Made by a program: the position numbers and the translations under genes
Shown: piece after piece, positions 1,254 to 41,400 of the stretch
How positions within the stretch are numbered: position 1 is the first letter of the stretch
Layout of the letters: the number at the start of each line of letters is the position of its first letter
Notes under the pieces: generated by a model
Seen by the model: the letters and a program-made list of their open reading frames with translations, nothing else
Told to the model about the DNA's origin: nothing
Databases searched by the model: none
Source of the DNA: Trichoplax sp. H2
Lineage: Eukaryota
Length of the DNA: 64,000 bases
Assembly (NCBI GenBank): GCA_003344405.1
Contig: NOWV01000014.1
Location: 558,001 to 622,000 of the forward strand
Direction of reading: 5' to 3'

Positions 1254-4200
1254 ATACACAAGTCAGTAATTTCCCAATCGTCACCGTCAAGACTGATGGC
1301 GAAGCAGACAATGTTCATAATTGTACCACCAATGTCAGTTTTGATGCAAGTAATCAACGCTACGTGAATGAACAACATTCTCCACCAATTCATCATACGC
1401 CGCCATCACCATCCAATCAACATCCTCATCATCATCATTCACTTCATCATCACCATCCTTCTCTTCCACATCATCAACAGCAACATCCACAACAACAGCA
1501 ACAACAATCTCAACAACATCAAACTTTATTCAGAAGGTTATCCGATAGTAGCGCTTATATATCAACTTTAGCCAGTCAGGAGAAACAACAACTAATGCGT
1601 CGATCGTCAGACAGTACTTCACTGATGGCCACAACTAATGTTGATCGATTGAATGTGAGAAGATTATCCGATGGGATCGCTTTAAATAATGGCCATTTCC
1701 ATCCACCCATGTTTAATAATCAATGCCAGCAGCAACCAACTCAACAACAGCAACAACAAGCACCACCACCGCCACAACAGCAACATCAACGTTTATCACC
1801 AGCCAATAGCTTAAGTGGTACTGTCTTTTCAGGCAATCCTAATCCATTTCAGCAAGGATTTCCTAACGTTAAGCAAGAGTGTCAAGATAATTGTTATGAT
1901 GTCGGTATGTAAGCCAAATGTTAAAAATGTGGGCGAAATCAGTTTTTATATTAATCCACTGCGTTGATGTAAAGTAGTGGGCGATTGATTTCCATCGATT
2001 TGTCCATGTTATACAATATCCTATTCGCCATTTCATTTTTATACTTTTCCATTTTTTCTCTCCCTCCCCAATAATAATTAATTATCCTTCTTTTAATTTA
2101 ATTTAATTTTACTGTACACTAGATAATTACTGACTAGTTCATATAATTTTAGACTTGTTGACATCGGCTAATAAGTAAAAAAAAAATGGTTGAAGATAAA
2201 ATGGTTATGCTACTGTACTATTAAATTGGGTAGTAGTTAGTAAAAATGTTAACTTCTCTACATAGCCAGTCATACGCAGTTTACGATCATATAGGATAGT
2301 ATTATTTCATCTATTATAAAATAGCCTTTCTAGTGGTGTAGTATTGGCTATGGAGTAACCATTATGAAATTATCAGGGGACGTTGACTGCAATATTCATT
2401 TTCTTTGTAATATACTTTGTATTTGGCAGAGAATATACTTAATTAAACAACTCAAAGGGTTATGATAAAGTAGACAGTCTTTAGGAGACTAGAAATAGAT
2501 TAATCGAGTTACAGTTTGATATCCTTTCATCAAACAGAACGGTCTCTCTTTAGTATTTTCTCGTTATTATTGAATATTTTTAGTTTTGATCTTATTATTG
2601 ATCCATTTCGATTTTTTTTTCCCCTTATACCTTTCTGTTCGGGGTTGTACGTATGACTGTAATGATTTATAATATAAACATCAGTTGTTAAAAACTTTAG
2701 GAATTAATATTAGTAAAATTATCGTAAGTTAGTAAGTTATTGATATTAATTTTACCGTTAAATCAGCAAAAAAGGATAAAAATGAAACTAAACAAGTTAA
2801 TATAACTCAAAATCGATCTTCATAGAACTATTTTAATATTAGATCGTAAAGTTATAAGGATATTGTTGAGTAAAATTGAAGCTAGGATGGGAGCTATGAA
2901 AATGATGATTCCCATAGTGAAGGATATGGACTTTGCTGTTGTCTTGAAGCTGTTCTGCTATATATATGTTAACAACGATCGTAGTTAATTTTTAGAACAT
3001 GCAATGAAATAGACAACGAAAATAATTAAAACGATAGAGTTGATAGACGTATAGTTAGTATAGCAGTTGATGTATTTAATATCTACAAGTAATTCAGTTA
3101 AATAAGTTATAGACTGCAGTATAGATATTATTTCCTATGACTCTACGATAGTTCCAATATGTTATCCTGAACGGTTGGAATTGATCTGCCAAACACTAAC
3201 GTGATCGACTGTACTACTATCTATTAATGTCATGTTGAATAAACTTTAACGCTATAGATGAAGAAAGATTGATCCTGATGTTAAAGCCATCAAATATATT
3301 GAATAGCGAATTTGCTTTCAGTTTAAACAATAAACTATTGATAATCGAAATAAAACAAAGTAAAATTAATTTGAAAATCCCTAATGTTCAAAGAATATCT
3401 ATTATTATTCAAATCTAACTACCGATGTTTATTAACGTTATAAACTGTAGAAATGGCATCACCATCTTCAGCTATGAGCGATAGTCGAAGTCCATATACT
3501 CCAATGGTTAATACACCAGAAGTTCGATCTCCTTATGATGTCAATTCTATGTATGATGATCATAGTGAACATTTATACAATGATGGTGTCGGTAAGATGC
3601 AATCATTAAATTCGTCCTAGCTATTTTATAAGTATTCGTATAATTATGCAATAAAATTTCGAATTTTTTTCCATTATAAATGACCATCATAAATAACTTA
3701 TTTAATCATCGCATTAATCAGATTACAAAAAAATAAAAATTGTCTTACCGTAAAATGAAGTATTATACAGAAAATCGATCCTTTCAGTGATGCCAACTCC
3801 CTTCATGATCAACATAGCTTAAATAGATTTTATGCCTATCGAATTAGTAACTGATATCAATTACTTAATCATTAATTAGCTATTATTGTAGAAAGCACAC
3901 GGTAGTCTATATTTTACATGTATAACGTTTCGTCAGGGAAGAATAAAGGTTTTTCAAAGTGATCTTGATAACTTACTTTATCTCTTCTATTAATCATCAA
4001 CAATGTAAAAGTTAGTAGTATACAAGGTAATTCCAGATTAATATTTTCTGAATACACATATATAAGACCTAAAAATAATATTATCGTATATGATCTAAAA
4101 GTGCGGTCCTTTTTTATTATTTAGATAAAGCTGTAGACGAATCATAAATCAGTATAGAACTACAGCCAATATAAAGATCATTCCAAGTTTTTAACATATT

Positions 4201-5309
4201 GCGTGATTTAAATATAGGGAAATTAAGTAAATGATTTACTCGTCGCAAAGTTTTCAATCCTTTTATTGTTATAGTAATACAAATTAGCTAAAGTCATGAA
4301 AAATATTCTCGTTATATAGTGTTATGTAGTTAAGGTTCTCTATTCAACTATGACTTTTTAATAATTATGTACATAGTCGTCAAATCTAACCTCTTCACTC
4401 CTGTATTAGAAATGGATGTGGGAGTATATTTCGACTGTTAAATATCAAACATTTCCTTTACATCGTTAGCGTAAAAATTTATAAAATCACACAAGAACTA
4501 GTAACTCAGTGCCTTTACTTGACTAATTTATTGCCATTTATTAAAATATGTTTATATCATCACCTGATTATTACTTCAATCGCAAAACGTGTTATCACAA
4601 ATCTTCCTTTTGCTGAGCGTATATTGACTGCTAATGCAAAATTAATGGCCGTTCAATATGCCCTCTTTCTACTCTAGTACTGTATATTAAATGTAACTCA
4701 GGGTATGATCGATAGGAATTATCATTGTCAATATTTTAGAAACAAATTATCTTTATTTGTTTTTTTGTAGCAGTTGCTGAAAGCAAAGGTAGATCTGAAG
4801 GTTATGATCTACCTACCTTTCAACGCCGTGGCTCATTACAGCTGTGGCAATTTTTAATAACTTTGCTAGACGATGCTGAATGTAGTGGCATTATCTCATG
4901 GACAGGGCGTGGAATGGAATTTAAATTAAATGATCCAGAAGAAGTTGCACGTCGATGGGGACAACAAAAGAATCGTCCAGCCATGAATTACGATAAATTA
5001 AGTCGATCGCTACGCTACTACTATGAGAAAGGTATTATGCAAAAGGTAGCTGGAGAACGTTATGTCTACAAATTTGTTTGTAGCCCAGACGCATTATATA
5101 AAATGGCTTATCCTGATGCTAACAAATCAGTTCCAAGGCAAGAATATCGGTCACCTTTAATTCAACAGGAACATCCTATTATAAACATCTCGAGTGTACG
5201 CCATCAACCGCCTTTTCAACGTTATCTTGATCAAACACACTATCCTGAACCCGGTCGTTATATTGAAAACTGTAATAGCAACACGGAATGGCAAAGCAAC
5301 ATTATGTAG
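1254..5309 (+). CDS. Pea3: PEA3-subfamily ETS transcription factor (ETV1/ETV4/ETV5 co-ortholog); exons 1254-1904, 3451-3591, 4771-5309; 5' end uncertain (in-frame ATG at 1217, or upstream exons such as a possible 901-929 micro-exon)
   Basis: The last exon translates to [21 protein letters not shown]...[63 protein letters not shown], the PEA3-type ETS domain. The GT-AG introns are phase 1 and keep one frame. The His/Gln-rich N-terminal region carries a VKQE SUMO-type motif and SP/TP sites. Confidence 0.93.
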
Positions 5310-13535: not shown

Positions 13536-19698
<6,163 letters not shown>

Positions 19699-20069
19699 TG
19701 GCCCAATGTAATTTCAATTTCCTTTGCTAAGCAATCAATCCGCGAAGACGATAACTGTACTTCGACTGTCTATGACGATATAGAATCCAATCCCTACTGG
19801 CAGAGTTGACGAACTGAGAGTCAACGACGTCTCGACATAGACCACAACACGGACCACTTGACACCACAGATTCAGAGAATGTTACTAACTGCTAGCAATC
19901 AATAAACCACTTTGAAAAATCATAATATGATAGCAGACTGAATGAAATTGTTGCGCATTCTTCATTCACAGAAAACAAATATGGCGTCCAAGCGATTGCT
20001 CAGCCATCAACATGTGAACACTGCTAGCGCTCCACTTCCCCTCCGACCCTATACAAACACAAGTGGATT

Positions 20070-20355
20070 CCTGTACAGTATGCGACATGCATAAGCTGGT
20101 CAAAGAAGAAAAAGTCGTCAGTGGCGATTGCATTGTCCTCACAATGGACTACAGTACTTTCCACTGGCTTACACCTCTTGCCCAATTCCAGATCATAATA
20201 GATAGGCTTTGTAACGGGCAGTATGACATGCTCTGTACAGTACCCTGTCAATAGTCCAGTTGGCTACAGTACAATATACTGCTGCTGCAGTTGTACTGTA
20301 CACTACTGCACTGTAGACTGTACAGTGTACAGTACTGTACTCCGGACGGTACTCT
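20070..20355. repeat. CAGTAC/ACTGTAC-rich low-complexity tract upstream of CUL1
   Basis: Dense recurrence of cagtac, ctgtac and tacagt words (e.g. gactgtacagtgtacagtactgtac). Confidence 0.55.
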
Positions 20356-20389
20356 GGACCATGGCCGTGTGAACACACACCCTGCTATG

Positions 20390-21111
20390 GACTACTGGAA
20401 AGAAGGATTCAAAATGGAAGATTGAAAGTTCGAATAATGTAGTGTAAATATCCAATCCTGTGATCAACAATGATAGCGGAAAATGACAATTTCGTCACAA
20501 TTTTGAATGAATAAAAAGTTTCCTCGTCGAATACACACTGATACTTGATACTGAGTGCAGAAATCGGTCATGAGATGAAGGTGGTCAAACACTTTTGCTC
20601 ACGTACACCACTGGATGGTGTATGGGTTGAAAAGCCGTTAATGAAATGGAGTAAAAACGCCACCCAAACCCGATCCAATGGTTGATTTTAGAACCCTAAA
20701 TGAGTACAATCGCTATGCAAACACTGAATCAGTGCGGAATGACTTAAGATTACTAGAAAGAACGATTCAAAATAGTAGATTGAAAGATAGAATAATGTAC
20801 TATAAATATCCACTCCTGTGATCAACAATGATAGCAGAGAATGACAATTTCATCACAGTTTTGAATGGGTAAAAGCTTTTCTCGTCGAATACACACTGAT
20901 ACTTAATACTGGAGTACAGAAATCGGTCATGAGATGAAGGTGGTCAAACATTTCTGCTCATGTACACCACTGGATGATGGATGGGTTGAAGAGCCCTTAA
21001 TGAACTTAAATGGAGTAAAAACGCCACCCAAACCCGATCCAATGGTTGATTTTCGATTCCTAAATGAATGCAATCGCTATGCAAACACTGTCTCAGCGCG
21101 GAATTACTTAA
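20390..21111. repeat. tandem duplication of a ~358 bp unit (2 copies)
   Basis: Copy 1 starts at 20390 and copy 2 at 20748. They share long identical blocks such as ctcgtcgaatacacactgatactt, agaaatcggtcatgagatgaaggtggtcaaaca and aaatggagtaaaaacgccacccaaacccgatccaatggttgatttt. Confidence 0.93.
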
Positions 21112-21173
21112 CCCGAATTCCTTCCCTTGAGTCGCGCTTTGCGTTGACATTGAAGGACGCTGGTGTGTTGGTA

Positions 21174-21566
21174 TCACGTTAGTGTTGAAATGGCGGACGA
21201 TTTGCTCTCGTCGTCTATTATGATTACGAGTTCACTACAACTTCTCACTTTCAGTATTCTATTTTTGACTATAGTAGCACAGCCACTTTTAGACATACAA
21301 TTTGCAGTATTGTAAGTCCATACAATTGATCGGCTCTCGCCGCCACTCGCACAAGTCCTGCTGTCGTACTCAGCCTTCGGGTACAATATTTGGCCAGCGA
21401 GACTCGATGACATTTGATCAACTACAAAACAATATTGATCCACGCAAGAGTTGAAATTTCTACCGTGGAAAACGCTCATTGTCATCTGTGCAATATTATT
21501 ACTACACAGCATCAAGATTACAGTTATGATATACAGTACTGCCTCATCACAATATGTCGGCCACAT
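21174..21566 (-). CDS. possible small secreted Cys-rich protein or pseudogene (weak C-type-lectin-like Cys pattern)
   Basis: A 130-aa ORF in locally GC-richer DNA, with a hydrophobic N-terminus (VLYIITVILMLC) and several Cys. No firm family match was recognised. Confidence 0.2.
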   Translation of the reverse strand: MWPTYCDEAVLYIITVILMLCSNNIAQMTMSVFHGRNFNSCVDQYCFVVDQMSSSLAGQILYPKAEYDSRTCASGGESRSIVWTYNTANCMSKSGCATIVKNRILKVRSCSELVIIIDDESKSSAISTLT

Positions 21567-22129
21567 CAGCCACTATAGCATGACTATTTAGAAAAACCTC
21601 ATAGTTTCTGATATACGATTCTGAAAATTTCGTCTTGGCTTGACTTTTTAATTAACTAATGGGAATGAAACCCTACTACTTTATTTTGAAGCGAAACTTC
21701 ATCCATTCATGATACAGGAAGTCAATTATTTTACAAAATGTAAACAAGTTACAATCCTTAAGTACACTGTTGTGCGCCGATACCCTATCATAAGTTGGCT
21801 TGGCAGTAGGATTATACGGTAATTAATTTATAACCAGTATTTCAATGATGAGGAAGTACTATAGTGGACGCTATTGAAAGGCCTACGCAATCAAAATGGG
21901 ACAAATTAAATATGGATTGAATCAAAATTCCCCTTAAGAAAATTCCATCCAGTACTACTATGCAAAACTAAGACTTCATGATAACAACATCACCATCAAA
22001 GCCAAAGAGCTACTCTATCATGATGCATTTATTATTCCTTATGAAAATGGATCCAAAGTAGAGATATACGCTTACACAGTATAGTTAGACATGCTTTTGT
22101 ACAGTCTCTAGTCTCTCTTCTCGTTCATG

Positions 22130-23070
22130 TCGAAGAAGAGGCCGGCAGTCAAACCTAGTACAATCTATAAATTACCAGAATAGAATCAATCCTGCCAGCG
22201 AAGTGAGGAGTATTGCGTTAATCAACTACTGTATTATCAGAATGAAGTACTGTATGCCAAAAGTCTAAGATGAGGCTTGAATCTAGTAGCAATCCGAGAC
22301 ATGGACTTTTACAGTAGATCGCACAAGTTTCCGTGACCAAGATATACAGCAGTGTAAACCAGTGACGTACACGAACTAGTTTGACGTAAGCTAGAATCAG
22401 CAATTACGAGCCTACACGCAACACAAAATGGTGAAAGAGAACAGCACCTTCGACATATCAATTCGCAAACTCTTCTAGCATAGAGAAAACGGCCGACAGT
22501 CAAACTTAGCACAATCCAAAATCGATTCTACCGGTAAAGCGGGAAGGATTACGTTAATTAACCATCATCAGGATAAGATAGGAGAAAGAGTCTAAAACAT
22601 GGTTTAAATTGAGTAATAATAGACATAACTGTAGCATAAAATAGAAGCACTCTCGGCAACTATAGAATACTAATGGAATATAAACAGAATCAGCAAGTTG
22701 GCTACGCGGAACACAAAATGGAGAACCAGAGCCATACGTTCGACACCTTGATTTGTCCATTCTTCTATTCATCTACTGTACTCGTAGGTGCAGTACTGTA
22801 TATGACTATGTTTAATTGAATAAATCATAAGCTAGACTGTATATAAACGGGAGCATCGAGTCCGTAGAGAGTTCTTCTCGTCGATTCTTTGTTATAGTAC
22901 CGTTCCAGTTAAAATTATGTTGTAATAAAGCTTAAAAGAATAGATCTTGCACTAGACTAAATACAGTAAATGGTGGTGGGGGGGGGGCATCCAGTCAATG
23001 GAGAATTCTTCTTGCCGATAGCGTACTGTAGATATCATTCCGGTTTAAATTTATTGTAATAAAGCTTAAT
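22130..23070. repeat. degenerate local direct repeats
   Basis: ggccg.cagtcaaac.tag.acaatc occurs at ~22140 and ~22490. agaatcagcaa..ctac.cg.aacacaaaatgg.gaa occurs at ~22393 and ~22686. ttgtaataaagcttaa with a similar upstream flank occurs at ~22920 and ~23054. Confidence 0.65.
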
Positions 23071-25429
23071 TCGGCTTTAACAACCCAGCTAGTCATACAG
23101 ACTGTCAACTCTGAAAATGGCCTTTTCTACAGCCCCACATACGTAAAGCGCTAGAGTACGGGTTTTCGATTGATCCATATCACTCAGTATTTAATAGCTA
23201 GTAGCTAAAATTACATAATCAGCATGAATCAGCCAAACATGATAGAGATGCTAACAAGCCAGATTAACTTGGTAACAAACGCTTAGATTGGCAAGTGTGA
23301 AATTTTTAACGCAGTTTTACTTCATTTTAATTGTTGAAAATGCTCTAGGAATAATTAATTGAATCAAAATTAGATGATGGACTGAAAGTGATTACGGTTA
23401 TTAATACTAATTTATCATATCAACGCCTATGTTTATGATATCAGTGCGATACAAAATACAACACTTGCCATCTTGATATATCATAAGCGGTTACTGTACA
23501 TGATAAAGTAACCACAAGTTGTAAAGAGTTACGATATTCCTATCCGGGACTTCTACGTAAGCAGGGGGAGGGACAAATAAGAGACCGAGTTAATATTATA
23601 TCTATTCATCGCTAAAAAGGTGGTCAGATAATTGCAACCTTGATAGGATGCAGCTGTCGGAGATGGATTTCAATACAATCAAAACTAAATTTACTACCTT
23701 TGTATATTCATTAAAGAGTATTTATTTATTTGACATTATCCAACAATCAAATTAATCACAGTAGAATTTGAATAGAAATCAATATCATTTAAGATATAGC
23801 TACATCGATATTAATACTTGTATAATCGCTATTCAATCCAAGATTGTATTATCTTTAGGCTGGACTAGGTGTCGTTGTTGCGAAATAATACAATCTTTCC
23901 AAGTTATACGAGAAGTTGTAATGCAGTAGGATTACTTTTAGCTAGATATTCCTTGTTGTCGTCCGCCTATTCGATCAATATTAGCGTCAAACTAACTAGA
24001 TGCCAAACGTACTTATATTTTACCAATATAAATACGAAATCAACCGCACGTGTCTCTGTAGTGATATCGATTTTTATAGCCCAGTAATAAAACATGCAAT
24101 GATATATCAGAAATTGTAGGTTAATTCCTAGCTATAATATGCTCAATTTATCCCATTGTAATTGTAATTAATCCGATAGAATTAAAGCTAATATTTGAAA
24201 TAGATGACTGGCTTGGTAAATAAATTAGACGTGAATATACTGTTTTAATTTATCATTATAGATAAGTTTACCAATACAGCAATATCGGATCTGATGAAAT
24301 AAATGATATCATACAAGCGACTTAGATGCTACAATGGAGTGCATCCTATGATTTTCATACATGTGTCGTAGTGTAGCCGCAATTTGAATTAAAAATTTTG
24401 CATTTTTACATATGCATATGTAATTTATGTGATTTTTGAGCCTACAATCATCGTCAATTACTTCTACTGGATGTTACTGTACTGATTCCGAAAGTAAAAT
24501 GGAACAACTACAAAATAAGAAATAAATCGATAACATAATTGATGGAAATTAAATCACCGTAACATCAAAACAGTAACCTAAGCCAGCACGATGGTGATCT
24601 TAGCAATAATTTTAAGCACAATCATCTTTAAGCCCAGCTATTGAGTAATTGTCTGCTTTAAAAAAATGAATTACTACAATAAGTATACAGTAGGTATCAT
24701 GGTAAAACGATAGTTACAGAAATCAGCTGATACCTATATCAATTGTGATGTAACGAAGCACACCTATATCTTTCAACAAGGAATATCTATTTATATAAGA
24801 CGTTTATAATTGCAATGTTAACGGTAATGGTGATCGATCAAGGCTGACGATTGTTCTTAAAAATAGTAGACATAGTTATTGCTAAAAAGAATGATGAAAA
24901 TCTTTGGAAATACTGATTAATATTGCATTGTTCGTTTAATTTTCGCCATTGTATTCTTGATCGATATCATGATATACATATACTCATATACGTCGCATAT
25001 ATATATTATATACGGCAAATGTCTAGATATATAGAGAGGTGCGGTATATTCTTGGATGTAATCTATAATTGCTATTGATAACAGCTGAATTGATTAGACA
25101 ACAGCAAGCAAAATGATTATTGAAGGACTAACATCACTACCATCTAAATAACAGCACCTGTACATTGTTTAACAATTAAATTCTAGTTAATTCTAGTCCT
25201 AACCTTAGGAATGATGGCCTATAGTTAATTCTAACAGATATAAGATCCAGCATCAACTATAGAATAAGCCTTACAATGTATTACTTCTTTATATGTCAAA
25301 TTATGTAAAATTTTTTTGTTTTATACAATTTTCTTTCGTTTTCTTCAAAACTTGTTCGTGTCTTCATCGATACAGATTGTTGTAGCCAATTTATGAGCTC
25401 GTATTCATATCACGCCACTGTTTACTTTT

Positions 25430-27039
25430 TTACGCAACGACAAAATAACTTTCAAGGCTGCGCTTGAGAATTTTTTGCTTTGTTTCATTTTGCCTTCTCC
25501 GATAGCGCTTACATACGCATTTACGAACAACTGACGGGAAAGCATATTTCGTAGTACCATCAAAACAATTCATTTTAACGCGTATAGTTTTACGAAAATG
25601 GGCCACACAACGCCAAATATAGCGCTTGCTAGCGCTAACATCTTGTGGGATATTATTCGGTCTACAAGCGCCTTCGCATAGTAAATCTTTAATAGATCGC
25701 TTACTAATGCATAAGCCCTTCATAACATAGCGATGAATCTTCTTTCCATCGCAACAACTTGATGTATTTGCTAAACGATTGAGGAAAAAAATGAAAATAA
25801 TTTAAAATGTGTCAAAAAAAATCCGACAAAATAAGAAAAATTCAAATCAGATGCATATCCTGCCAGCATAAGCCATAAACTAGTTACTCTCCCTCTTATC
25901 TATAAACGCATAGGCACTGGGAAGCAAAAATGTTTTTATAATATAAGGTAATAAAATGAAGCCCTTTAAAATAAACTTTTAAATATTAAATTCTTATTTA
26001 AAGTAACAAAAATTTGATAATCAAATTGACAGGTACTCTAGTTGGTTACAATTAAAATAAATTGGCCGTGTCATAAAAGTAAAAAAGTGATAATATACTA
26101 CAGGTATTAAATCTTGCTAGAAATCTAATATTGATTTATCAAAATAGTTATTTAAGACTATTTACAATTCCAATCCTAAAATTCATCTAATATTTGACCT
26201 GGTTGAATGTCGGTGAACGACATGAATTGCGACGTTTGATGAATCTTAATTCTTAGATAGTAAAAATTATATGATAATTCTTACTTGGAGCACAATTTAC
26301 TATCTTATGTTCACAATATGAAAAATGCATTGCAATTTCTGGTAAACTTCTTACGTGTAATCGTCAATCAACAATCTAAATAATTTTTTTCGACATCTTT
26401 ATCGCTTTAAGAATTAAAACCTAGCAACACATTCTCAAAATGAAACTAATACGTGCAAATAGTTCATGCAAAGTGGCGATTTGATTAATAAGTATTATCC
26501 TTTCAAATAATATCTAAATTAATTAGCTATCATGTAATAGGAGATAATTTAATACACAGATTACAAAGCCCTTAAAATTAGTAAATTGTCAAAAAAAAAT
26601 AAAAATCCGATCGTCAACACTTTCCAAACGTTTATGTTACAAATGGCAAAAATCTTCAATATGTCATGATTATCTAAGGCTATTACATCAGCCGCATTCA
26701 AGTCAACAAATGATAGACCTAAGTTGGCATATTAATTACAAGATAAAATAAAAGTTTATTATCAACGTTGGTATAGAACAGAAAAATTGCGAAAAATTGT
26801 AGAACAAATTCAAGAGAGCAATGAAAAAAATACGGCATTTTTATGTACAGAAAATTTAGATCAGTTCACTTACCAATACTAGTGCATTTCTTTGTGAAAA
26901 CTTGCTGTTCCTTTTTAGGTTTAACTTGATCCGGTGACTGAGTTGGTGGTGATAATTTAGACAAATCAATTTGGCCATCCACTGCTACAATCAATATAGC
27001 GAAGAAAAGACACAAGCTAACTAGCATCAATTTGATCAT
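25430..27039 (-). CDS. SOSTDC1: Sclerostin/SOSTDC1 (Wise)-family secreted cystine-knot Wnt/BMP antagonist, 168 aa; exons 26874-27039 and 25430-25770
   Basis: Exon 1 encodes a signal peptide (MIKLMLVSLCLFFAILIVAVDG) and ends G|GTAAGT. Exon 2 follows TTTAG in phase 1 and reads CDGKKIHRYVMKGLCISKRSIKDLLCEGACRPNNIP...WRCVAHFRKTIRVKMNCFDGTTKYAFPSVVRKCVCKRYRRRQNET. The Cys spacing (C-x13-C-x10-C-x3-C...C-x13-C-x15-CxC) and the WRCV and CxCKRY..xNE motifs match SOSTDC1/sclerostin as I recall them. Confidence 0.88.
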
Positions 27040-30000
27040 GGTCGGCCTGCTGTATCACTTTTCGTATATAGAGGTGGAAATCGCTAGATGATAGCTATAC
27101 TTTAATTTTCGAGATGGTTGGATAATTGGCTTTCTACCAAGTAACAGCTATAGTAGTCCAACTGTCTTTTCTTCTATGTTAAAAGATGATCCTGTAAGTC
27201 AACTAGGGATCGAATAACAAATAGAGTATTGATCTGACTGATATGCCTAAATAACGATATAATATCAAGGAATGGTCTAAATTGAAGTGGCAGAGTTGAG
27301 GAGATCAAAGTGTGATCCGATGATGGCGTTGTCTGGTTAATATAAATTGATGGTAAGACAATAAAGTTAAAGTAGTCTGAGAAAATTTGAACTACGATAA
27401 CAATAGCATTGATAAGGTAAGATCAAGATAACAAAATATCAGTAAGAAAAGTAATGTTGTCAATGATTATTGTGATATATAGATAAAATGATAGGTTAGG
27501 TTTTGATACAATTATCACACCAATCTTTCTGAACTAGTCATAATCATACTTGTTGCCAATACAATGAGTTACCTAGCCAAGACTAAAGGAAAACAATTAT
27601 ACAATATTGTCTTATTCAAAATCAACACCAGGTGAAAATTTAATGCGTCCTTATCTACGTTATTTACTTTTCTGGACATCAATGTTATCCATTCAATTAC
27701 TGAAATAATTTCCAAGATGAATAAGGAGCCTTAACTAGTAACTGGAAGAGAAAACTATTATCATTATCGTCGTCGTTATTATTCCGCTGCTTGACTGTAT
27801 TGTAAATAGCTAGGAATGCGGTAGACCAATTGATTTTCCCTTATTTTGATTTCCCAATTAAATACCCAAGCATTAACAGAGATAACTAGTGACTTATAAT
27901 AGTAATTGTTTAATTACAATTTAATTAACGATAAATTAGTAGGGGGTAGGCAAAGAGTTGTTTTTCTCTTTGATTCTACACCTACAAGCAAAAGGATATA
28001 TTAGCAACTTACATTTGGTATCGCTATAGATATTTACTAATTCAAAAAGAGTGCCATAATGTCTTCTATTTATATTTTACGGTAAACTTTCTTCATAAAT
28101 AAATGCGATTTTAGAGCTAAAAATGGCAATATAGACTAGCAGTGGAACGATAAGCTAATCAATCAAATTTTATCATGACAGATTGACAATTTTTTTGACA
28201 ACTTGTTAGTACAACTTTTGCATATGAGATTAACTACAGATCACGCCAAAAAATAAGTTATTTACTAAACCTGATCTTATACGATAGGGTAACAACATGA
28301 TTACATAGTAAATTGTATACTCAAACTACAAAATATTAAAAAAATATGATTTCATTTTCAGTAGCACAATTTACTTTTATTGTCGACTCAGTCATAAATG
28401 ATAGTAGATTACAATTTTGTACATAGTATAAAGCGTCTAAGCTATGATGGATTATAGCGAGCAGATGGATGAAGTAAGAGAGCAGGTGGCGGATGGGCAA
28501 AGGCCATGAGAACGAGTATTAACTGTTGTAATAGTATAGAGAAGATAAGAGAAAAAGGTAAAAAATATGGAGTAATGTCATTCACATTAGGTATGTCTAT
28601 CAGCAAAAATAGATTTCCACTCAAGTGTAGCGTTATCAAATTTAATTTATAAAATTTCGATCTTAATTATTGAGAATTAAATAAGAGTATTAGATTATCT
28701 ACGTTTCAATAGATTGGATAGTTAATATCGATGATTAATTTAATTCATCGCTGAGGCTAGATAAGTTCCGCTTAATCAGGCTGGATATGTAGCCCTATGG
28801 GCTGCTTTATGGCTATTTAATCAGTGATTATAAAATTCTATTATATCTCTATCTTATACTATTCATGTCTAGAAAATTTTCTCACACAATCTATAGTCAT
28901 TTCTGACTTATTGATGCTATTCTAGACGTCGATAGGGCATTTATCTCTTCAACCATTATCAAATACAATAAAATTATAATTGTACTTATAAAGAATTAAT
29001 CAGAACCATATTATTTTTATCGGTTCTAAATTAAATACAGAATGACTTTGATCAGTGATTGAATTCAATATTATCTTCCATGCAACAATTTTTCACGATT
29101 ATCTTGTAACCTTTAAGGAATTATCTTACTCAAAATTATGATACCTCGCAATCTTAATTAAAAACTAATGAGATTACAACCCTTATCGTTGCATTAGCTT
29201 GTTCAATCCAATATCACCAATTCGTTTTGATGTAAACCCACCTAGTGTAAACCACTATTATCGATAATATCTAAAATTTGGATATGGTTGGCTATGTTCA
29301 GTTTTGATGCCATTTAATCGCCTATCTAAAAGGTAGATTATATTATAATTTCAAAAAGTTTCAATTTTATCGTCCAATCAATAAGCAAGTAAACAACTTT
29401 ATTCCAAATTTTCAACGACATAATCAAAATGTACTTCTTTCTTACTTGATGGCTAAGTAATGAATATTTTGATCAATTTCGTTATTTATTTGTTATCTCT
29501 ACATCTAACCTAAGTTAAAGTAATATTATCATCGATCTTTTACTTTCTTTGTTTCTTCTTGATCGTCATAAAGTGGCAAAATAATAAGTCAAAAACATTA
29601 GACTTAATTAGCCGTGACATTAAGATATTATTTGCAACAATAACTGTAAATGAATAACGAATTGTATCGCTTTTATTCCTACCGAAATCAGGTGAAGGAA
29701 ACTAGAGTAATCTATTCTTAAATTGGCCAATCTTAAGAATTTAATAGCTTTAAAAATGATTCATACGGTATAAATTAAAATGAATTCAATAATAATACAA
29801 TTACTATGTCAACTGCCTTTATTGGCTTACTATGTGACGGCTTCTGAATTACCTTTGCCTAATAAGAATAAGATTCTTATTGCCTGAATTGAAAGCATTC
29901 AAAGCTCTTGAAAGTTATTCAACGAACCAAGCGGTTAGTAAGTGTTGTTAACCACTTTTAAACCGGATATAATAAAATTGCTATTGCGAAGGAATCACGA

Positions 30001-35440: not shown

Positions 35441-38400
35441 TTAATCATCCTCTGTCGAGCTATTATTATCAAAACCGCTACTGCTACTGCTACTGCTATT
35501 ACTCAATCTCCTATCTAATGCTATGGCTGTCATAGCTGTATATTTAGGATTTTGGTTGATTGAAAATGTTCCATTTTCTTCGTCTTCTACGGTTACAACA
35601 TGATTTTTAGTTGCCACTGGAGCAACTTTCTTATCATCTTGTGAATCATCTGATTGCGCTAGACCTACTGGTAATTTTGACGGATATCTCTCGACATAGA
35701 CTGTATTCGCTTGATCCTTGTCTTTCTTTCGCCGACTACGGATGATGTGATTGATTTGGATATAAATCAAAACTGACAGTACAGAGCATAAGACGCTACT
35801 AACGCTGCTGACTACTACTAATGTAATGATATTTAGTTTAGAATTATCGTCGTTCCTAGTAGAAACAGTTGAATCTGTTGTACCAGATTGAATTTGTTGT
35901 TGCTGGCCATCTAATGGAAAACATAGATTAAATAAAAGATCTTAATTAACCTTACATATATATATATCAGACAGATAGACAAGATTTTAAAACTACAGCC
36001 AATTATTCTACTTTTTATTGGTCAATAAATGCAAGATTGCATTAACGATGCGGGCCGAAAATAAATCCTTTATACTATCTGCAAAATTATTGATCAACTA
36101 AACTGAAATTTATTGGCATTTGATGATTCCATGCAGTATCTGAAATTTTAGATTGCAGAATCGCGTTTTAAACTAGTTTATTAAGTTTACCTGTATTACT
36201 ACACTGAGCCATAGTCGGATAAACTTCACCACAAGTTTGAATCTCCGTTTGGATCACATCGCAGCTTGTACTGTTATGACAATTACAATTTCGCGATCGA
36301 ACTTGGCGATTATTAATGCAAGCTGACCAAATTGTCCAATCATCGCAAACTTTATCGCTATCAGAATAGCAATCAAATCGATTACAACTCTTGGATTCTC
36401 GCATATCATATCCACCACATTGATCAGCATCTAAAACTTGATTGGATACTCCATCACGGCATGTTCTAGTTCGAATTTGATTGCCACCACCACATGTTCG
36501 ACTACATGGCGACCATTCCGTCCAACAACTCCAAATTGGAATGACAGCAGCATTCACCACTAATCATTTATTAGTAGTAAACAAATTAGTATCCACATTC
36601 ATACGTGTATTCAAATACTCGTCTATTAATCAATTTGGTCGCTATTTGCGGCAGATTATTTTAATGGTTCGTTATTAAATTAAATTGAAGGCTTTAATTC
36701 TCAATCTTTAAAATTTTAGTTATATTCATCGGAATGAGTAATTAGGACATATTTATATGACGTTTTTAAGCTTGATGATCAAATCCAATTACGAATAGCT
36801 CGATTATTGATATTCGAGGTATCCGTCATGGGTATGACTCATTTTTATACAACTATCAACACCTGAATAATTTTCTCTCCTATATTACAATTATAAGAAA
36901 ATTTTTACCTTCAGTTGTGCATGGATTCAAGGTGCAGACGACGGTTTCAATCGAATTACCATGGCATGGTTGACCACCGTCGGTGGGAACTGGATTATCG
37001 CAGGTTCTATTTCGAGTGCGGATACCAGTTCCGCATGTACTACTGCATGGTGTCCATGGCTGCCATGATGACCACTGACCATCATTACTTTGAAATTTTT
37101 GGCATTGGCCATTAGCATCGCAATTACGAGATTCTGTTTCCATTTCATTAATTCGCATATCCTTCTCTTTACGTTCTGCTGGTAATCGAGCAAAACAAGT
37201 AAATCGGAATCGTCGTTGCGTAGTGGAATGATTTACGGCTAGCCATGGTGTCCAAACACTCGTTAGCGTTTGCTCTTGGCAATATTGACTCGCAAGGCAG
37301 GATTTCTGCTCGAGATAGTCACCAGAGCAATCGCGACCACCATATTGTGGCGTTGGATTATTACATTCTCTTTTTCTGGTTGTTACCATGTCATTATCAC
37401 ATTTCTTATTGCAAGATGCCCAACTAGACCATTCTGACCAAGCTCCGTCGATTGCTAAATGACAGATATGGAAAGAAATTAAGTAAGCCTCTCTACCGTA
37501 TATCATGCTTTCAACACATAATATCAATATCCATGTTAGAAATGGAGATCGGAGATGAATTGGAAATGATAGATTGTAGATAGATGCATACCTGGGCAAA
37601 TAATTTGCTGATTACAGGAACGAGTTTCTTCTGTTGTTTTGTCGCAAGGTGGACGACCACAGCTTCTTGTACGTCTCTGAACACCATCAAATCCGCATGA
37701 TTTTGAGCATGGAGACCATTCCGACCATGGTGAATAATTTTGTACACCTTTATAGAATTATTCATCATTAGCAACAACTTTCCACTACTATGGCAGTATT
37801 ATAGGCTAGCATGACATTGTCTGGCTAAAGAAGATGCTATTTTAATGCTATTTTAATGCTAATTTACCTGTGCAATTAACTGCATCGATTTTAACTATTT
37901 GCGTTGTACGACAACCTAAGCAATATTGCTTTCTACACTGACATTTGCCAAGATCACTCTGATGGCAACTATACCAATTTGTCCAACCCTCTATAAGATA
38001 GATGCAACAGCAATGGAAATTTTGTGTTAGAATCGATTCATTTTAATATGATTAAAACAAAACCTTCAATTCATACCTGAGTCGATCTTGGATGTAGGAC
38101 ACTTGCTTAAATCTTGTATCCAATTAGAACTAAATTTTGACAGTTATCATTCAGTCCAAAATGGTGATTATTATATATTATGATAATTATAAGTAATTGA
38201 TTGCTTACAGTGGCGTATATTCGGTACATTTGTTGTCCTTAACAGACCACCCGCAGTATGGATCATGAGCTAGAAGGCACTGGCTATTGGACAACCATCG
38301 AAAGCATACAAATATTTTGTTAGAGGTATTTCCTTAATTGCATTCTTCCAATACCAGTCTACTTACCTTTGAGTGGCATACCGACCGCATCGATTGATGC

Positions 38401-41400
38401 CAATTCTTAAAACTTTCGTTTCAGTAGTTATGAAGAGATATTTCTAGATTATGAAATGATGTAAGATCAGTATAATCTCTTCAACCTCTATCGTAGCTTT
38501 ATATATATATATATATAATAAATCGATAACTGATTTAGGAAATTCATTTAAAGTTAAGTTATTTATCTTCTTAGCTAAGTCATTCGATTTACCTCTTTCT
38601 TAATAAAGAGCATATTAGTAATTTTCTCTCCTTTCATAGCCTATTATGATGTGATTATACTTATTTAATCAATCCATGCATCAAAGGGATTCTAATGTGG
38701 AGAATAACTATGGAAAATTAATGAGCTAATTTTACTTACGGATGAAATTTTAATTTCCTCAATGGTACACAATTTTTGTCGACCGTGTGGTTGATACATT
38801 TTAAGTACGGTCCCATGATCTGGTTGATAATCATATCATTTAATTTGGTTAGATAATTGCGTCTTTTATAAGTAGAATAGAGACGTTAGTTGGAATTTAA
38901 TTGCATAATTATGCATCCTCTGATACCTGTAGCTACAAAAAAAATTTGAACATGTTGTCCACCACGGATTTGAACTTTATCAATCATTAATTTGGAAAAT
39001 CGAACATCATTCATGACAACCAAAGGTATTTTTTGTCTTGGTTGAACAACTTTTGCCATCGATTGATATTTCATAGCCTGGAAAAGATCACGTTTGGTAG
39101 TTCCAGCTGGTTGCCCTCTTGAAATACTGGTTTCGTATGTTTCACACTAAAGAGAAGAAAGGCAAAGTGAGCAATAGGTGAGAATCAATTTTGTCCAAAT
39201 TTACACGTTCTGTGCTATCTAAATCTTGATGATAGCTTGCATCTTAATTTACTATTTTATATGCTAGATTTAATTGATGTATGATCTATTTTAAGGCTAA
39301 ATAATTAACTACAGCAGTCCTTTAACCGCTGCTAACCTTTTCTATATGTCCTGGATTAGTCGCTTTTTGCCATTTGCCATTTTCATCCCGACGAATATAG
39401 TCACTGGCGAAGACAGCATTAATAGCTTCATCTTTAAATGCGCAAATAGCAGAGCCTGGTAATCCATTACTATATAGCGGTAAGGTTAAAAAATATGAAA
39501 ATGAATGAATTTTTGTAATTCATTTCTTTATGTCGTATTCGATTTAGACTACTTGATTAATGTAACTTGTTCGTAGAATTATAGCACCTACCTTAATGTT
39601 GTAAAGACTGCATAAGTGGTTTTAGTATCTTCCATTCTAAATATGTCTTCTACAATGTGCAAATACAAAGTGATAATATTTTTATTTTTAACAGGAATAA
39701 CTTGAAGAATACGAACAGTTTACGATACATTTGTACATATTGAATTATTTAGGAGTGAATATTTTAGATCTTATTAATCAGTTCATTTAGATAATAACAC
39801 TAATTATTACTTGCGACGAGACTTACTGATATTGCGGAAGTAGAAGGGAAATTTACCAGGAAGAGAACAGTTAAGTCTGGCTTTGGCGAAAGTTGTCCAT
39901 TGGTTACGAAGGATGTATACCCCACCAATATCATTCTGTGCATAATTATGATTTAGATTAATAGTTGCTTTTGTAGCTTAATTGATTAAAATTAAGTTAC
40001 GATATTGATTCAATACTACATGAAGCCGTAGAAATAGACAAGTACCCTACTTGATGGTTAAAATTTTTATAACTTAGGTAATTGTACCATACTATTCATC
40101 GCATTTCGTCTAATTTACCTTGCAAATACGAGCAATACGTGGGTAAACAGCCTAATTATGTAAATCAAGATAGATCGAGGTAGAATTCATATTATTAATG
40201 ACGCAAAATAAAAAATTTAAGAGCAAGAATTACAAGAATAGATTCTTAAGACTAATAATAACTACAGTAATCTGCTTTCCAATAGTATTCAAATTTATAA
40301 AACTCTACAAGATTCTCCTCTACTTAGAATTATAGCGCAATGATAGACATTTAATTACATTATCTGCTTCTTGAAACTCTTGAATTGTTTCAGAAAACCA
40401 AACAAACATGTGATTTAAACTTTCATGAAAGCCGGCAAATCGTGGGGCTGCAAATTTTAAAATAAGATTGATTAGATCGAGAGATTTGCACAAATTCAAA
40501 TATTAAGATATTATATTTACAGAAGTAGATGGGTTGATATTATGGATAAGGGTTTGCATTTGCTTATGTCCCAAAATATACCGCAGTAGCACGACACTTA
40601 TCATTATAATTTAGTATACTAAAGTGACCGATTTTAGGCCAAATTATTACCATTAAATATGCATTACACTTGTGTTTAAGTTACTAAAATTCATATTTTG
40701 ATTGCGTTTACGCTATTCTGTATCTTCATTCAATCTGAGGGTATAATCTCTAATTACACTTCATGCCAAATCATGATCATTCTATTCTTACCATTTAACC
40801 AAGTCGGACTACTACCGTCCGTATTCAAGGATACTTTTCCACCAAAGCGGCGCTGAATGGTGTAACTTTTCCTATCGATATCATAGACTGTTCCACCATA
40901 AAGGCTTCCATCCGCTATTTTTGTAAAATTAAAAAATATCGATAATTAAAATTAAAGTATATTTTTCTAGAATTCTTTGTCATATATTAAAGGAACAAGA
41001 ATCATTCAGTATTTTTTTTTAAATTGCCAAGCAACCGAACTGCTTTTCTCTTAAATTAATGATAGTTAGATGTGCTTTTACATTTATACCTCATGGTAAT
41101 GCTATTTTTAATGACAAGCCTACTTCTGAAATTTTGATATTCTATATACTAGATATCAGTAAACCTATTTCATTAAATTTACGCTTCCAAGTGCTACATA
41201 AGTAAGCATTACATAATGGAAATGATTTATGACTAATAAGTCTACTGATCCGGTTAATATAGCCACATAAACCAATTTATTAACCAATTTTGTGCTAATA
41301 TTTCATATTAGCATTGGAGACTTTATAATTATCCTGCACTATTCATAAATCAATTTCTACAATGTTATTCTACTATTAATTACCGTATGTAATTGAAAGA

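What the first reader, a model, noticed from the sequence alone, without database searches (positions are those of the whole stretch)
25430..27039. Intact sclerostin/SOSTDC1 (Wise)-type Wnt antagonist in an apparently early-branching animal
Seen: a two-exon gene with a signal peptide, a phase-1 intron just before the knot, eight Cys spaced as in SOSTDC1 and a very basic C-terminus (CVCKRYRRRQNET). Known: vertebrate SOST/SOSTDC1 are two-exon genes that antagonise Wnt via LRP5/6 (SOSTDC1 also binds BMP), and sclerostin uses a basic patch to bind heparin. Inference: if this is a placozoan-grade genome, LRP-directed Wnt inhibition by a Sost/Wise protein long predates bone and nervous systems. The gene is small, split and easily missed or labelled hypothetical.
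Basis: partly seen in the sequence, partly recalled or inferred. Interest (0 to 1): 0.8.

Follow-up and report, generated by a model that had tools for sequence, protein, structure and literature searches.

The report
Trichoplax sclerostin-family (SOSTDC1-like) gene, already annotated
This is a real, expressed two-exon gene for a secreted cystine-knot protein of the sclerostin/SOSTDC1 family in the placozoan Trichoplax, already present in public databases, and it lacks the loop motif that vertebrate members use to block the Wnt co-receptor LRP5/6.

Summary
The minus strand carries a two-exon gene: exon 1 at 27039-26874, a GT..AG phase-1 intron of 1103 nt, and exon 2 at 25770-25430. Its 168-aa product is letter for letter the public protein P0150 (XP_002110162.1, TRIADDRAFT_53874, "hypothetical protein" in T. 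adhaerens; RDD45614.1, "Sclerostin domain-containing protein 1" in Trichoplax sp. H2). RNA contigs from two studies skip exactly 1103 nt.

Family membership is well supported:
- Pfam Sclerostin scores above DAN.
- All 72 significant homologues are sclerostin-type.
- Sclerostin is the nearest solved sequence and fold.
- The knot spacing is the family's 14-11-4-x-14-16-2.
- The family's post-knot motif is present.
- ETV1/4/5-type and Cullin-1 genes sit beside it, the same neighbours published for SOSTDC1 from sea anemone to human.

The functional inference is not supported. The loop-2 NXI motif that binds LRP6 occurs only in the vertebrate clade. It is absent from every cnidarian and invertebrate member examined, and the corresponding loop segment is deleted in Trichoplax. 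The NNI in Trichoplax lies elsewhere in the loop and reads DNI in a second placozoan. The LRP6-E2-contacting tail motif is conserved.

Target (BMP or LRP) is untested. Already annotated; modest interest.

The parts
26874..27039 (-). Exon 1 coding part: Met1 to Ile55 plus the first base of codon 56. It holds the hydrophobic signal-like N-terminus (residues 1-22, about 26974-27039) and one extra Cys (C52).
   Evidence: An RNA contig of X1 covers 26876-27255, so the 5' UTR reaches at least 27255.
25771..26873 (-). Single intron, 1103 nt, GT..AG, phase 1. It splits codon 56 (Ala), six codons before the first knot cysteine.
   Evidence: A skip of exactly 1103 nt is seen in contigs of X1 and X20, with the joint placed 2 nt away.
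25430..25770 (-). Exon 2 coding part, residues 56-168 plus the TAA stop (25430-25432).
   Evidence: Pfam Sclerostin 44.9 bits, DAN 33.7 bits.
25511..25753 (-). Cystine-knot domain, residues 62-142, with eight Cys at spacing 14-11-4-19-14-16-2.
   Evidence: AF2 pLDDT is above 90 over most of it. The best fold matches are sclerostin 2k8p and 6l6r chains C and D.
25610..25663 (-). Loop 2, residues 92-109 (RPNNIPQDVSASKRYIWR), 18 residues against 24-33 in other members. The NNI lies at 25649-25657. The segment homologous to the vertebrate NXI site is missing.
25433..25510 (-). Basic C-terminal tail, residues 143-168 (pI 11.0). It starts with the family motif KRYxRxQNET, whose NET is a glycosylation sequon, followed by K/R residues.
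   Evidence: The HNQ(E)S region and basic cluster of SOST/WISE contact LRP6 E2 (PMC7585440).
1193..5309 (+). Neighbouring ETS transcription-factor gene of the ETV1/4/5 (PEA3) type. The ETS-domain exon is at 4743-5309 and a Gln/His-rich exon at 1193-1909.
   Evidence: Pfam Ets 120 bits. The top 7 PDB hits are ETV1, ETV5 and ETV4 at 170-187 bits, against ETS1 at 137 bits.
14110..19713 (-). Neighbouring Cullin-1 gene, at least nine exon-like reading frames.
   Evidence: For the N-terminal exon, 9 of 9 PDB hits are Cullin-1. For exon 14693-15016, the top 11 hits are Cullin-1 at 61-65 bits against Cullin-2 at 39 bits. Pfam Cullin matches three further exons.

Best explanation
The gene is the placozoan pro-orthologue of vertebrate sclerostin (SOST) and SOSTDC1 (Wise/USAG-1/ectodin), and it is already recorded as TRIADDRAFT_53874.

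Shown:
- It is transcribed and spliced.
- It encodes a 168-aa protein with a signal-like N-terminus, a short linker, an eight-cysteine DAN-type knot and a very basic tail.
- It is conserved with all cysteines in a second placozoan.
- It sits in the ancient ETV1 - CUL1 - SOSD neighbourhood.

Inferred:
- It is secreted and held on heparan sulphate by its basic surface. It acts outside the cell by binding a signalling component and keeping it from its partner.
- Its most likely target is a BMP/TGF-beta-type ligand. That is the general activity of the DAN family, and SOSTDC1 has kept it.
- A blocker of the first LRP5/6 propeller is less likely, because the NXI contact used by vertebrate SOST and SOSTDC1 is absent from all non-vertebrate members sampled and its loop segment is deleted here.
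- A weaker contact with Lrp5/6 through the conserved tail (QNET plus basic residues) remains possible.
For: Identity:
- The spliced product is identical to P0150, which is XP_002110162.1 / EDV28328.1 / RDD45614.1.

Family:
- Pfam Sclerostin scores 44.9 bits on exon 2 and 41.4 bits on the full length (cut-off 27). DAN scores 33.7 and 32.2 bits.
- The only significant PDB sequence hits are sclerostin, best E = 5.9e-6.
- An exhaustive phmmer search of 1.84 billion representatives gave 72 hits at E <= 1e-3. All 72 score Sclerostin above DAN.
- The closest named homologues are anthozoan 'sclerostin domain-containing protein 1'.
- In a careful maximum-likelihood tree, the placozoan pair lies in a 10-row clade with the cnidarian proteins at 100/100 support. 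The vertebrate SOST plus SOSTDC1 clade also has 100/100.
- The top 3 Foldseek PDB matches of the AF2 model are sclerostin (E 1.4e-4 to 3.2e-4). Grem2 ranks 25th and PRDC 36th.
- The motif C-x-C-x7-N-x-[ST] is present in 68 of 73 proteins, including both placozoans.

Synteny:
- An ETV1/4/5-type ETS gene and a Cullin-1 gene lie within 25 kb.
- PMC4079206 (passages read) reports Cul1 and ETV1 flanking SOSD in limpet, near it in amphioxus, on the same Nematostella scaffold and on the same human chromosome.

Expression:
- Spliced contigs are seen in 2 of 4 runs laid.

Selection:
- P0003 is 92% identical with all nine exon-2 Cys kept.

Mechanism:
- SOSTDC1 is a BMP inhibitor and Wnt modulator (PMC12585493, abstract).
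- The NXI distribution is given.
- Trichoplax has BMP ligands (PMC6501881, passages).
Against: - No binding or activity has been measured for any non-vertebrate member that I could find.
- SOST itself does not inhibit BMPs (PMC12585493), so BMP binding is not universal in the family.
- The tail element that contacts LRP6 E2 in SOST/WISE is conserved here, and Trichoplax expresses an Lrp5/6 gene broadly (PMC13128682, passages). An LRP target is therefore not excluded.
- The Pfam margin of Sclerostin over DAN is only about 10 bits for this divergent protein.
- The tree has no outgroup, and the placozoan stem reaches the program's maximum length, so long-branch effects are possible.
- The AF2 model was built from an alignment of sclerostin-family proteins, which biases its nearest fold.
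Confidence: 0.6

Rival explanations
1. This is the first reader's reading: the protein is an LRP5/6-directed Wnt antagonist that works like vertebrate sclerostin or Wise, so this mode of Wnt inhibition predates the Cnidaria-Bilateria split.
For: - It is a member of the family.
- An N-x-I tripeptide (NNI) is present in loop 2.
- The tail motif QNET plus basic residues matches the HNQ(E)S plus basic cluster that binds LRP6 E2 and contributes to Wnt1 inhibition by SOST and WISE (PMC7585440).
- Trichoplax has Lrp5/6, while Dkk, WIF-1 and Cerberus are reported absent (PMC13128682). That leaves room for another antagonist.
Against: - NXI is absent from 0 of 37 plus 0 of 29 non-vertebrate homologues. 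These include named hemichordate, amphioxus, echinoderm, mollusc and anthozoan proteins.
- The Trichoplax NNI is not at the homologous position. It aligns with D-E-L of the cnidarian proteins, and the following six residues are deleted.
- The second placozoan has DNI there.
- A chance N-x-I in an 18-residue loop is expected in roughly 1 in 15-20 loops (my estimate).
- Loop 2, not the tail, is the primary LRP6 site (PMC7585440).
- The conserved N-x-[ST] may be kept simply as a glycosylation site.
Confidence: 0.22
2. The protein is a generic DAN-family member (Gremlin-, NBL1- or Cerberus-like) that merely scores on the Sclerostin model.
For: - Pfam DAN is also above its cut-off, at 33.7 bits.
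- An older survey counts one 'gremlin family' gene in Trichoplax (PMC2657120, Table 1). I could not tell which gene that is.
Against: - None of the 72 significant homologues scores DAN above Sclerostin.
- With sclerostin clusters excluded, Atlas feature hits to Gremlin/DAN clusters stay at or below 0.88, under the 0.9 lead level.
- There is no extra cysteine inside the knot.
- The family-specific post-knot motif and the ETV1/CUL1 synteny are present.
Confidence: 0.06
3. The protein is a bursicon- or glycoprotein-hormone-like cystine-knot ligand that acts on an LGR receptor.
For: PMC4079206 says placozoans have putative peptides of bursicon/GPH primary structure, and LGRs. I could not see which genes are meant, because the supplement was not readable.
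Against: - Pfam Cys_knot scores 20.8 and 18.4 bits, below its cut-off of 24.
- No hormone subunit is among the 72 hits.
- The protein lacks the additional knot cysteines that the same paper uses to define Burs/GPH peptides.
Confidence: 0.04

Closest known systems
Anthozoan 'sclerostin domain-containing protein 1' (SOSD), e.g. Acropora cervicornis XP_074622821.1, Exaiptasia diaphana XP_020917250.1 and the Nematostella SOSD of Roch and Sherwood 2014
   Same: - These are the best sequence hits: E 1.5e-16 to 1e-12 and 39-48% identity over the knot.
- They form a 100/100 clade with the placozoan pair.
- Cys spacing is the same outside loop 2.
- The post-knot motif KRYxxKQNxT has Q before N, as in Trichoplax.
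- There are 30 invariant columns across 9 sequences.
   Different: - Trichoplax loop 2 is six residues shorter and lacks the anthozoan LP[FW]FPxFSKI segment.
- Trichoplax has a CC doublet at the first knot cysteine and an extra Cys in exon 1.
- Its linker between signal peptide and knot is much shorter.
Vertebrate SOSTDC1 (Wise/USAG-1/ectodin)
   Same: - Same Pfam family.
- Same knot spacing apart from loop 2, and the same post-knot CxCKRYxRxxNx[ST] motif with a basic tail.
- Neighbourhood with ETV1 and, more distantly, CUL1 (PMC4079206).
   Different: - Vertebrate SOSTDC1 carries LPNWIGG in a 27-33-residue loop 2. This is the NXI motif exposed for LRP6 binding (PMC12585493). Trichoplax lacks it.
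- BMP binding and dimer formation are shown for SOSTDC1 and untested here.
Vertebrate sclerostin (SOST; PDB 2k8p, 6l6r)
   Same: - It is the nearest solved sequence and the nearest solved fold, with TM 0.71-0.73 on the target length.
- The basic, heparin-binding character is shared; heparin binding of SOST is recalled, not tested here.
   Different: - SOST binds LRP6 E1 through PNAIGR in loop 2 (PMC7585440), which is absent here.
- The Trichoplax tail has Q where SOST has the His of HNQS that the paper found important.

Membership tests
Sclerostin/SOSTDC1 family (Pfam PF05463) | Score above the curated Pfam cut-off and above the sister model DAN | tested here: met
   44.9 bits (exon 2) and 41.4 bits (full length) against a cut-off of 27. 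DAN scores 33.7 and 32.2 bits.
Sclerostin/SOSTDC1 family (Pfam PF05463) | Eight-cysteine knot with the family spacing and no additional cysteine inside the knot domain | tested here: met
   Spacing is 14-11-4-19-14-16-2. Six other members have 14-11-4-(25 to 29)-14-16-2. PMC4079206 defines SOSD as lacking the 6th and 7th conserved Cys.
Sclerostin/SOSTDC1 family (Pfam PF05463) | Post-knot motif C-x-C-K-R-[YL]-x-R-x-x-N-x-[ST] followed by basic residues (the HNQ(E)S region) | tested here: met
   The window has CVCKRYRRRQNET. The motif is present in 68 of 73 family proteins, with Q instead of H in 2 of 2 placozoan and 8 of 8 cnidarian rows.
Sclerostin/SOSTDC1 family (Pfam PF05463) | Homologues are reciprocally sclerostin-type, and the protein is placed with recognised members in a tree | tested here: met
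   72 of 72 hits score Sclerostin above DAN. It forms a 100/100 clade with anthozoan SOSD. There was no outgroup, so monophyly against other DAN proteins was not tested by tree.
Sclerostin/SOSTDC1 family (Pfam PF05463) | Conserved neighbourhood with ETV1-type and CUL1 genes | tested here: met
   An ETV1/4/5-type ETS gene lies at 1.2-5.3 kb and Cullin-1 at 14.1-19.7 kb. The published synteny is in PMC4079206.
Sclerostin/SOSTDC1 family (Pfam PF05463) | Two coding exons with a phase-1 intron a few codons before the first knot cysteine | tested here: inconclusive
   The window meets this. That human SOST has the same phase and position is my recall only. Two literature searches for the splice-variant names I remembered found nothing.
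Vertebrate-type LRP5/6 antagonists (SOST, SOSTDC1, DKK1 N-terminal peptide) | Exposed N-x-I motif that docks into the first LRP5/6 propeller, at the tip region of loop 2 in SOST/SOSTDC1 | tested here: not met
   The NNI present lies at a non-homologous place next to the knot, the homologous segment is deleted, and the second placozoan has DNI. The motif occurs in 30 of 33 vertebrate-clade rows and in 0 of 37 plus 0 of 29 other non-placozoan proteins.
Vertebrate-type LRP5/6 antagonists (SOST, SOSTDC1, DKK1 N-terminal peptide) | Physical binding to LRP5/6 and inhibition of Wnt/beta-catenin signalling | not testable with these tools
   No Trichoplax Lrp5/6 sequence could be obtained, because no genome is held.
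DAN superfamily (Pfam PF03045), BMP antagonists | DAN-domain match above cut-off; BMP ligand binding | tested here: inconclusive
   The domain match is met, at 33.7 bits against a cut-off of 22. BMP binding was not testable.
Glycoprotein hormone / bursicon cystine-knot family (Pfam PF00007) | Match above the curated cut-off | tested here: not met
   20.8 and 18.4 bits against a cut-off of 24.

The most novel reading that the evidence does not exclude
The placozoan protein is nevertheless a working Wnt antagonist. It would hold Trichoplax Lrp5/6 through the family-wide tail element (QNET plus basic cluster, the E2 contact of SOST/WISE), perhaps helped by its own NNI. In that case the tail, not the NXI loop, would be the ancestral LRP contact of the family. 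Trichoplax is reported to lack Dkk, WIF-1 and Cerberus, so it would have a second secreted Wnt inhibitor besides Sfrp.
Probability: 0.15. Interest if true: 0.6.

Novelty: already known. Interest (0 to 1): 0.3.

Why it matters
The gene itself is not new. The exact protein is in GenBank and UniProt, and one record already carries the name SOSTDC1.

What the check adds:
- Orthology evidence that does not depend on the protein sequence itself: the ETV1 - CUL1 - SOSD neighbourhood is kept from placozoan to human.
- A caution for evolutionary reading: the motif that makes vertebrate SOST and SOSTDC1 into LRP5/6 blockers is confined to the vertebrate clade in this sample. The presence of the gene therefore does not show that LRP-directed Wnt inhibition is ancient.

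A 2026 study of Wnt patterning in Trichoplax (PMC13128682) lists the Wnt antagonists that are present and absent. In the passages I read it does not mention this gene, and the paper was not among those returned by my Trichoplax-plus-sclerostin search. The protein is thus a cheap candidate to test in that system against both Wnt and BMP read-outs.

Tried and rejected
- Homodimer prediction (residues 50-168, two copies). The verdict was no answer, with score 0.00 and controls not run. It says nothing for or against dimerisation.
- Whole-genome search. No genome is held for this window, so I could not look for Lrp5/6, BMP ligands or other DAN genes of the same organism.
- Outgroups for a rooted tree. 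No tool gave me Gremlin, NBL1 or Cerberus sequences as stored proteins. The Atlas call names such clusters but returns no sequences.
- Supplements. The file of PMC2657120 held only tree files, and my number search matched branch lengths. The file of PMC4079206 was not readable. I therefore cannot say whether either paper already lists this gene as its placozoan 'gremlin family' or 'Burs/GPH-like' entry.
- Literature searches that found nothing:
  - SOSTDC1 + Nematostella
  - SOSTDC1 + Trichoplax
  - TRIADDRAFT_53874
  - SOST splice-variant names
- Trichoplax + sclerostin gave 3 papers, none describing a Trichoplax sclerostin gene.
- One search term was malformed.
- Earlier findings of this scan held nothing relevant.
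- Intron cover in X17 and the parts without cover in RNA runs are not used as evidence.
Full report
**What is there**

On the minus strand an ATG at 27039 opens a 166-base coding exon. It ends at 26874 in front of GTAAGT. An intron of 1103 nt ends with a pyrimidine tract and TTTAG at 25771. A second exon runs from 25770 to a TAA at 25432-25430.

The intron is phase 1 and splits codon 56, six codons before the first knot cysteine. The spliced frame is 507 nt and gives 168 aa. The protein has these parts:
- a hydrophobic signal-like start, modelled as a helix over residues 2-21
- a 39-residue linker with an NTS sequon
- a knot domain with Cys at 62, 76, 87, 91, 110, 124, 140 and 142
- a 26-residue tail of pI 11.0 that begins KRYRRRQNET

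The mature protein has pI 10.0, with 33 Lys+Arg against 10 Asp+Glu. Two further Cys (52 and 61) lie just before the knot and could pair with each other; this is inference.

**Is it expressed and spliced?**

I searched the run index with exon 2. I then laid four runs on 25200-27300.
- Two of the four, X20 (RNA on record) and X1 (guessed RNA), each hold one contig that covers exon 2, skips exactly 1103 nt and continues in exon 1. They come from different studies. The X1 contig reaches 27255 upstream and runs past 25200 downstream.
- X3 covers the whole stretch including the intron, so it behaves as DNA.
- X17 (RNA on record) has only unspliced fragments at low depth.

The tool puts the joint at 25772|26876, not at the canonical 25770|26874. 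The skipped length is the same. The two placements differ in a single letter of the joined product (Ile codon ATA against ATT) and give the same protein. A one-base strain difference with canonical splicing explains this, since both contigs carry other differences from the window. I could not see the contig letters, so this remains an inference.

**Which organism, and is the gene known?**

No genome is held for the window. A neighbouring exon (36883-37611, minus strand) is 97% identical to TRIADDRAFT_53875 of Trichoplax adhaerens, a Sema/TSP1 protein.

The cluster of the only close hit to exon 2 (P0003, 92% identical, an unspliced reading frame from an unnamed contig) has one other member, P0150, of 168 aa. 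P0150 has these records:
- EDV28328.1 / XP_002110162.1, 'hypothetical protein TRIADDRAFT_53874 [Trichoplax adhaerens]'
- UniProt B3RQE2, 'CTCK domain-containing protein'
- RDD45614.1, 'Sclerostin domain-containing protein 1 [Trichoplax sp. H2]'

P0150 equals the window's spliced product letter for letter. The gene model and even the family name are therefore already public.

**Family**

- Pfam. Exon 2 scores 44.9 bits on Sclerostin (cut-off 27), 33.7 on DAN (cut-off 22) and 20.8 on Cys_knot (below its cut-off of 24). The full length gives 41.4, 32.2 and 18.4.
- Solved sequences. The only hits with E below 0.1 in the PDB are three sclerostin entries, the best at 5.9e-6.
- Exhaustive search. A phmmer search of 1.84 billion cluster representatives found 72 proteins at E <= 1e-3 and 9 at E <= 1e-10. 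I scanned all 72 against Pfam, and every one scores Sclerostin above DAN. No Gremlin-, NBL1- or Cerberus-type protein reached significance.
- Named members of the hit clusters:
  - anthozoans: Acropora, Exaiptasia, Actinia, Desmophyllum, Porites, Nematostella
  - gastropods: Bulinus, Biomphalaria, Lymnaea
  - a thrips
  - echinoderms: Antedon, Apostichopus
  - Saccoglossus and Branchiostoma
  - many vertebrate SOST and SOSTDC1 proteins
  No sponge or ctenophore protein was among the named hits.
- Tree. A careful maximum-likelihood tree of 73 rows, using 151 of 610 alignment columns, puts the two placozoan rows in a 10-row clade with the cnidarian-type rows at 100/100. All rows named as vertebrate SOST or SOSTDC1 fall in one 33-row clade, also at 100/100. 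The placozoan gene is therefore co-orthologous to both vertebrate genes.
- Tree caveats. There is no outgroup, the root is arbitrary, and the placozoan stem is at the program's maximum length. Its position inside rather than beside the cnidarian group is weakly supported (77/83 and lower).
- Fold. An AF2 model from a 52-sequence alignment has mean pLDDT 76, above 90 over most of the knot. Its three best Foldseek matches in the PDB are sclerostin chains, at E 1.4e-4 to 3.2e-4 and TM 0.71-0.73 on the target. Grem2 ranks 25th and PRDC 36th. The ESM Atlas's own model of this protein also has a SOSTDC1-like cluster as its first structural match.
- Cys spacing and tail motif. The intervals 14-11-4-x-14-16-2 are identical in Trichoplax, anthozoan, crinoid, snail, eel sclerostin and bat SOSTDC1 proteins. 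Only the loop-2 interval differs: 19 here against 25-29. The motif C-x-C-x7-N-x-[ST] after the knot is present in 68 of 73 proteins.

**Synteny**

Roch and Sherwood 2014 (PMC4079206; passages read) state the following about the genes for Cul1 and ETV1:
- they flank SOSD in the limpet
- they lie close to it in amphioxus
- they are on the same chromosome in human
- they are on the same scaffold as the Nematostella SOSD orthologue

The window shows the same company.
- An ETS-domain exon at 4743-5309 (plus strand) scores 120 bits on Pfam Ets. Its seven best PDB hits are ETV1, ETV5 and ETV4 at 170-187 bits, against 137 bits for ETS1.
- A multi-exon cullin gene lies at about 14.1-19.7 kb (minus strand). 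For its N-terminal exon, 9 of 9 PDB hits are Cullin-1. A central exon hits Cullin-1 at 61-65 bits against Cullin-2 at 39 bits.

This is independent support for orthology. I did not find it described for placozoans in the papers I could search.

**Function: what can and cannot be inferred**

Kim et al. 2020 (PMC7585440; passages) report two LRP6 contacts of SOST.
- The primary contact is the NXI motif (PNAIGR) in loop 2, which docks on propeller E1. The mutants N117A and I119E lose about ten-fold affinity.
- The secondary contact is the tail, HNQS plus a basic cluster, which binds E2. This element is shared with WISE.

A 2025 meeting abstract (PMC12585493, whole text) describes SOSTDC1 as a non-covalent dimer that inhibits BMPs and exposes two NXI motifs. 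It describes SOST as a monomer that does not inhibit BMPs.

I extracted loop 2 from all 73 proteins.
- NXI is present in 30 of the 33 rows of the vertebrate clade, as LPNWIGG or PN[AST]I.
- It is present in 0 of the 37 evaluable other non-placozoan rows; one row had no recognisable CxGxC.
- It is present in 1 of the 2 placozoan rows.

Among 33 further proteins from the profile search:
- the two with vertebrate SOSTDC1-type loops have NXI
- one pipefish protein has NWL
- one fragment could not be evaluated
- 0 of the 29 cnidarian and invertebrate proteins have NXI

Non-vertebrate bilaterians carry LP[WNDF]Y[AS][ED][FY]xKxW at that place, and anthozoans carry LP[FW]FPxFSKI. In the alignment with cnidarian proteins, the Trichoplax NNI aligns with D-[EQ]-L upstream of that segment, and the next six residues are deleted. 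The second placozoan has DNI.

So the E1 contact looks like a vertebrate acquisition, and the NNI in Trichoplax is most simply a coincidence.

The tail element is conserved family-wide, here as QNET followed by K/R residues. It is also an N-glycosylation sequon, which could be the reason for its conservation.

Trichoplax has a broadly expressed Lrp5/6 and an Sfrp. It is reported to lack Dkk, WIF-1 and Cerberus (PMC13128682, passages). It also has BMP2/4, BMP3, GDF5 and a chordin-like antagonist (PMC6501881, passages). Both kinds of target therefore exist in the animal.

I weight the options as follows:
- BMP-type ligand trapping, the general DAN-family activity kept by SOSTDC1: about 0.4-0.45
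- LRP-directed action: about 0.2-0.25
- another partner: the remainder

All of this is inference; nothing has been measured.

**Novelty and score**

However, the gene is already annotated, with this name in one record. SOSD orthologues in cnidarians were published in 2014. The headline inference of ancient LRP-directed Wnt inhibition is not supported by the motif evidence.

The useful residue is threefold:
- the conserved ETV1 - CUL1 - SOSD neighbourhood in a placozoan
- the vertebrate-restricted distribution of NXI
- a candidate antagonist that recent Trichoplax Wnt work does not mention in the passages I read

Interest 0.3.

Noticed in passing
window 1193-5309 (+): ETV1/4/5 (PEA3)-type ETS transcription-factor gene. 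It has a Gln/His-rich exon at 1193-1909 with no Pfam match, and the ETS-domain exon at 4743-5309.
   Followed up: partly
window about 14110-19713 (-): Multi-exon Cullin-1 orthologue. Its first coding exon (19315-19713) matches only Cullin-1 among solved structures.
   Followed up: partly
window 17872-18314: Tandem repeat of a 200-bp unit, 2.2 copies, 88% matches. It lies inside the cullin gene's intron region. A related third copy seems to follow near 18333-18500, judged from similar reading frames.
   Followed up: no
window 18000-24000: The stretch is richer in G+C (0.36-0.40 against about 0.30 around it). It holds several reading frames of 70-130 aa without Pfam matches, for example 21177-21572 on the minus strand, and internally similar pieces near 20.5-21.2 kb. 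It may be a repeat or mobile-element remnant between the cullin and SOSD genes.
   Followed up: no
window 35444-39146 (-): Semaphorin-5-like gene with Sema, TSP1 repeats and a transmembrane segment. It is 97% identical to TRIADDRAFT_53875 over the exon tested. It is the next gene upstream of the SOSD gene on the same strand.
   Followed up: partly
window 56012-56221 (-): Exon with a strong Translin-family match (76.9 bits).
   Followed up: no
proteins P0012-P0074 and P0170-P0202: Within the sclerostin family, loop 2 falls into three conserved types:
- vertebrate LPN[WAS]I..
- non-vertebrate bilaterian LPWYAEFxKxW
- anthozoan LP[FW]FPxFSKI
The strong conservation of the two non-vertebrate types suggests that they bind a partner of their own, which is not yet identified.
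   Followed up: partly
protein P0063: One sclerostin-type representative (275 aa) also carries a partial dual-specificity phosphatase domain. This looks like a gene-model fusion with a neighbouring phosphatase gene. From recall, DUSP3 lies next to SOST in human.
   Followed up: no
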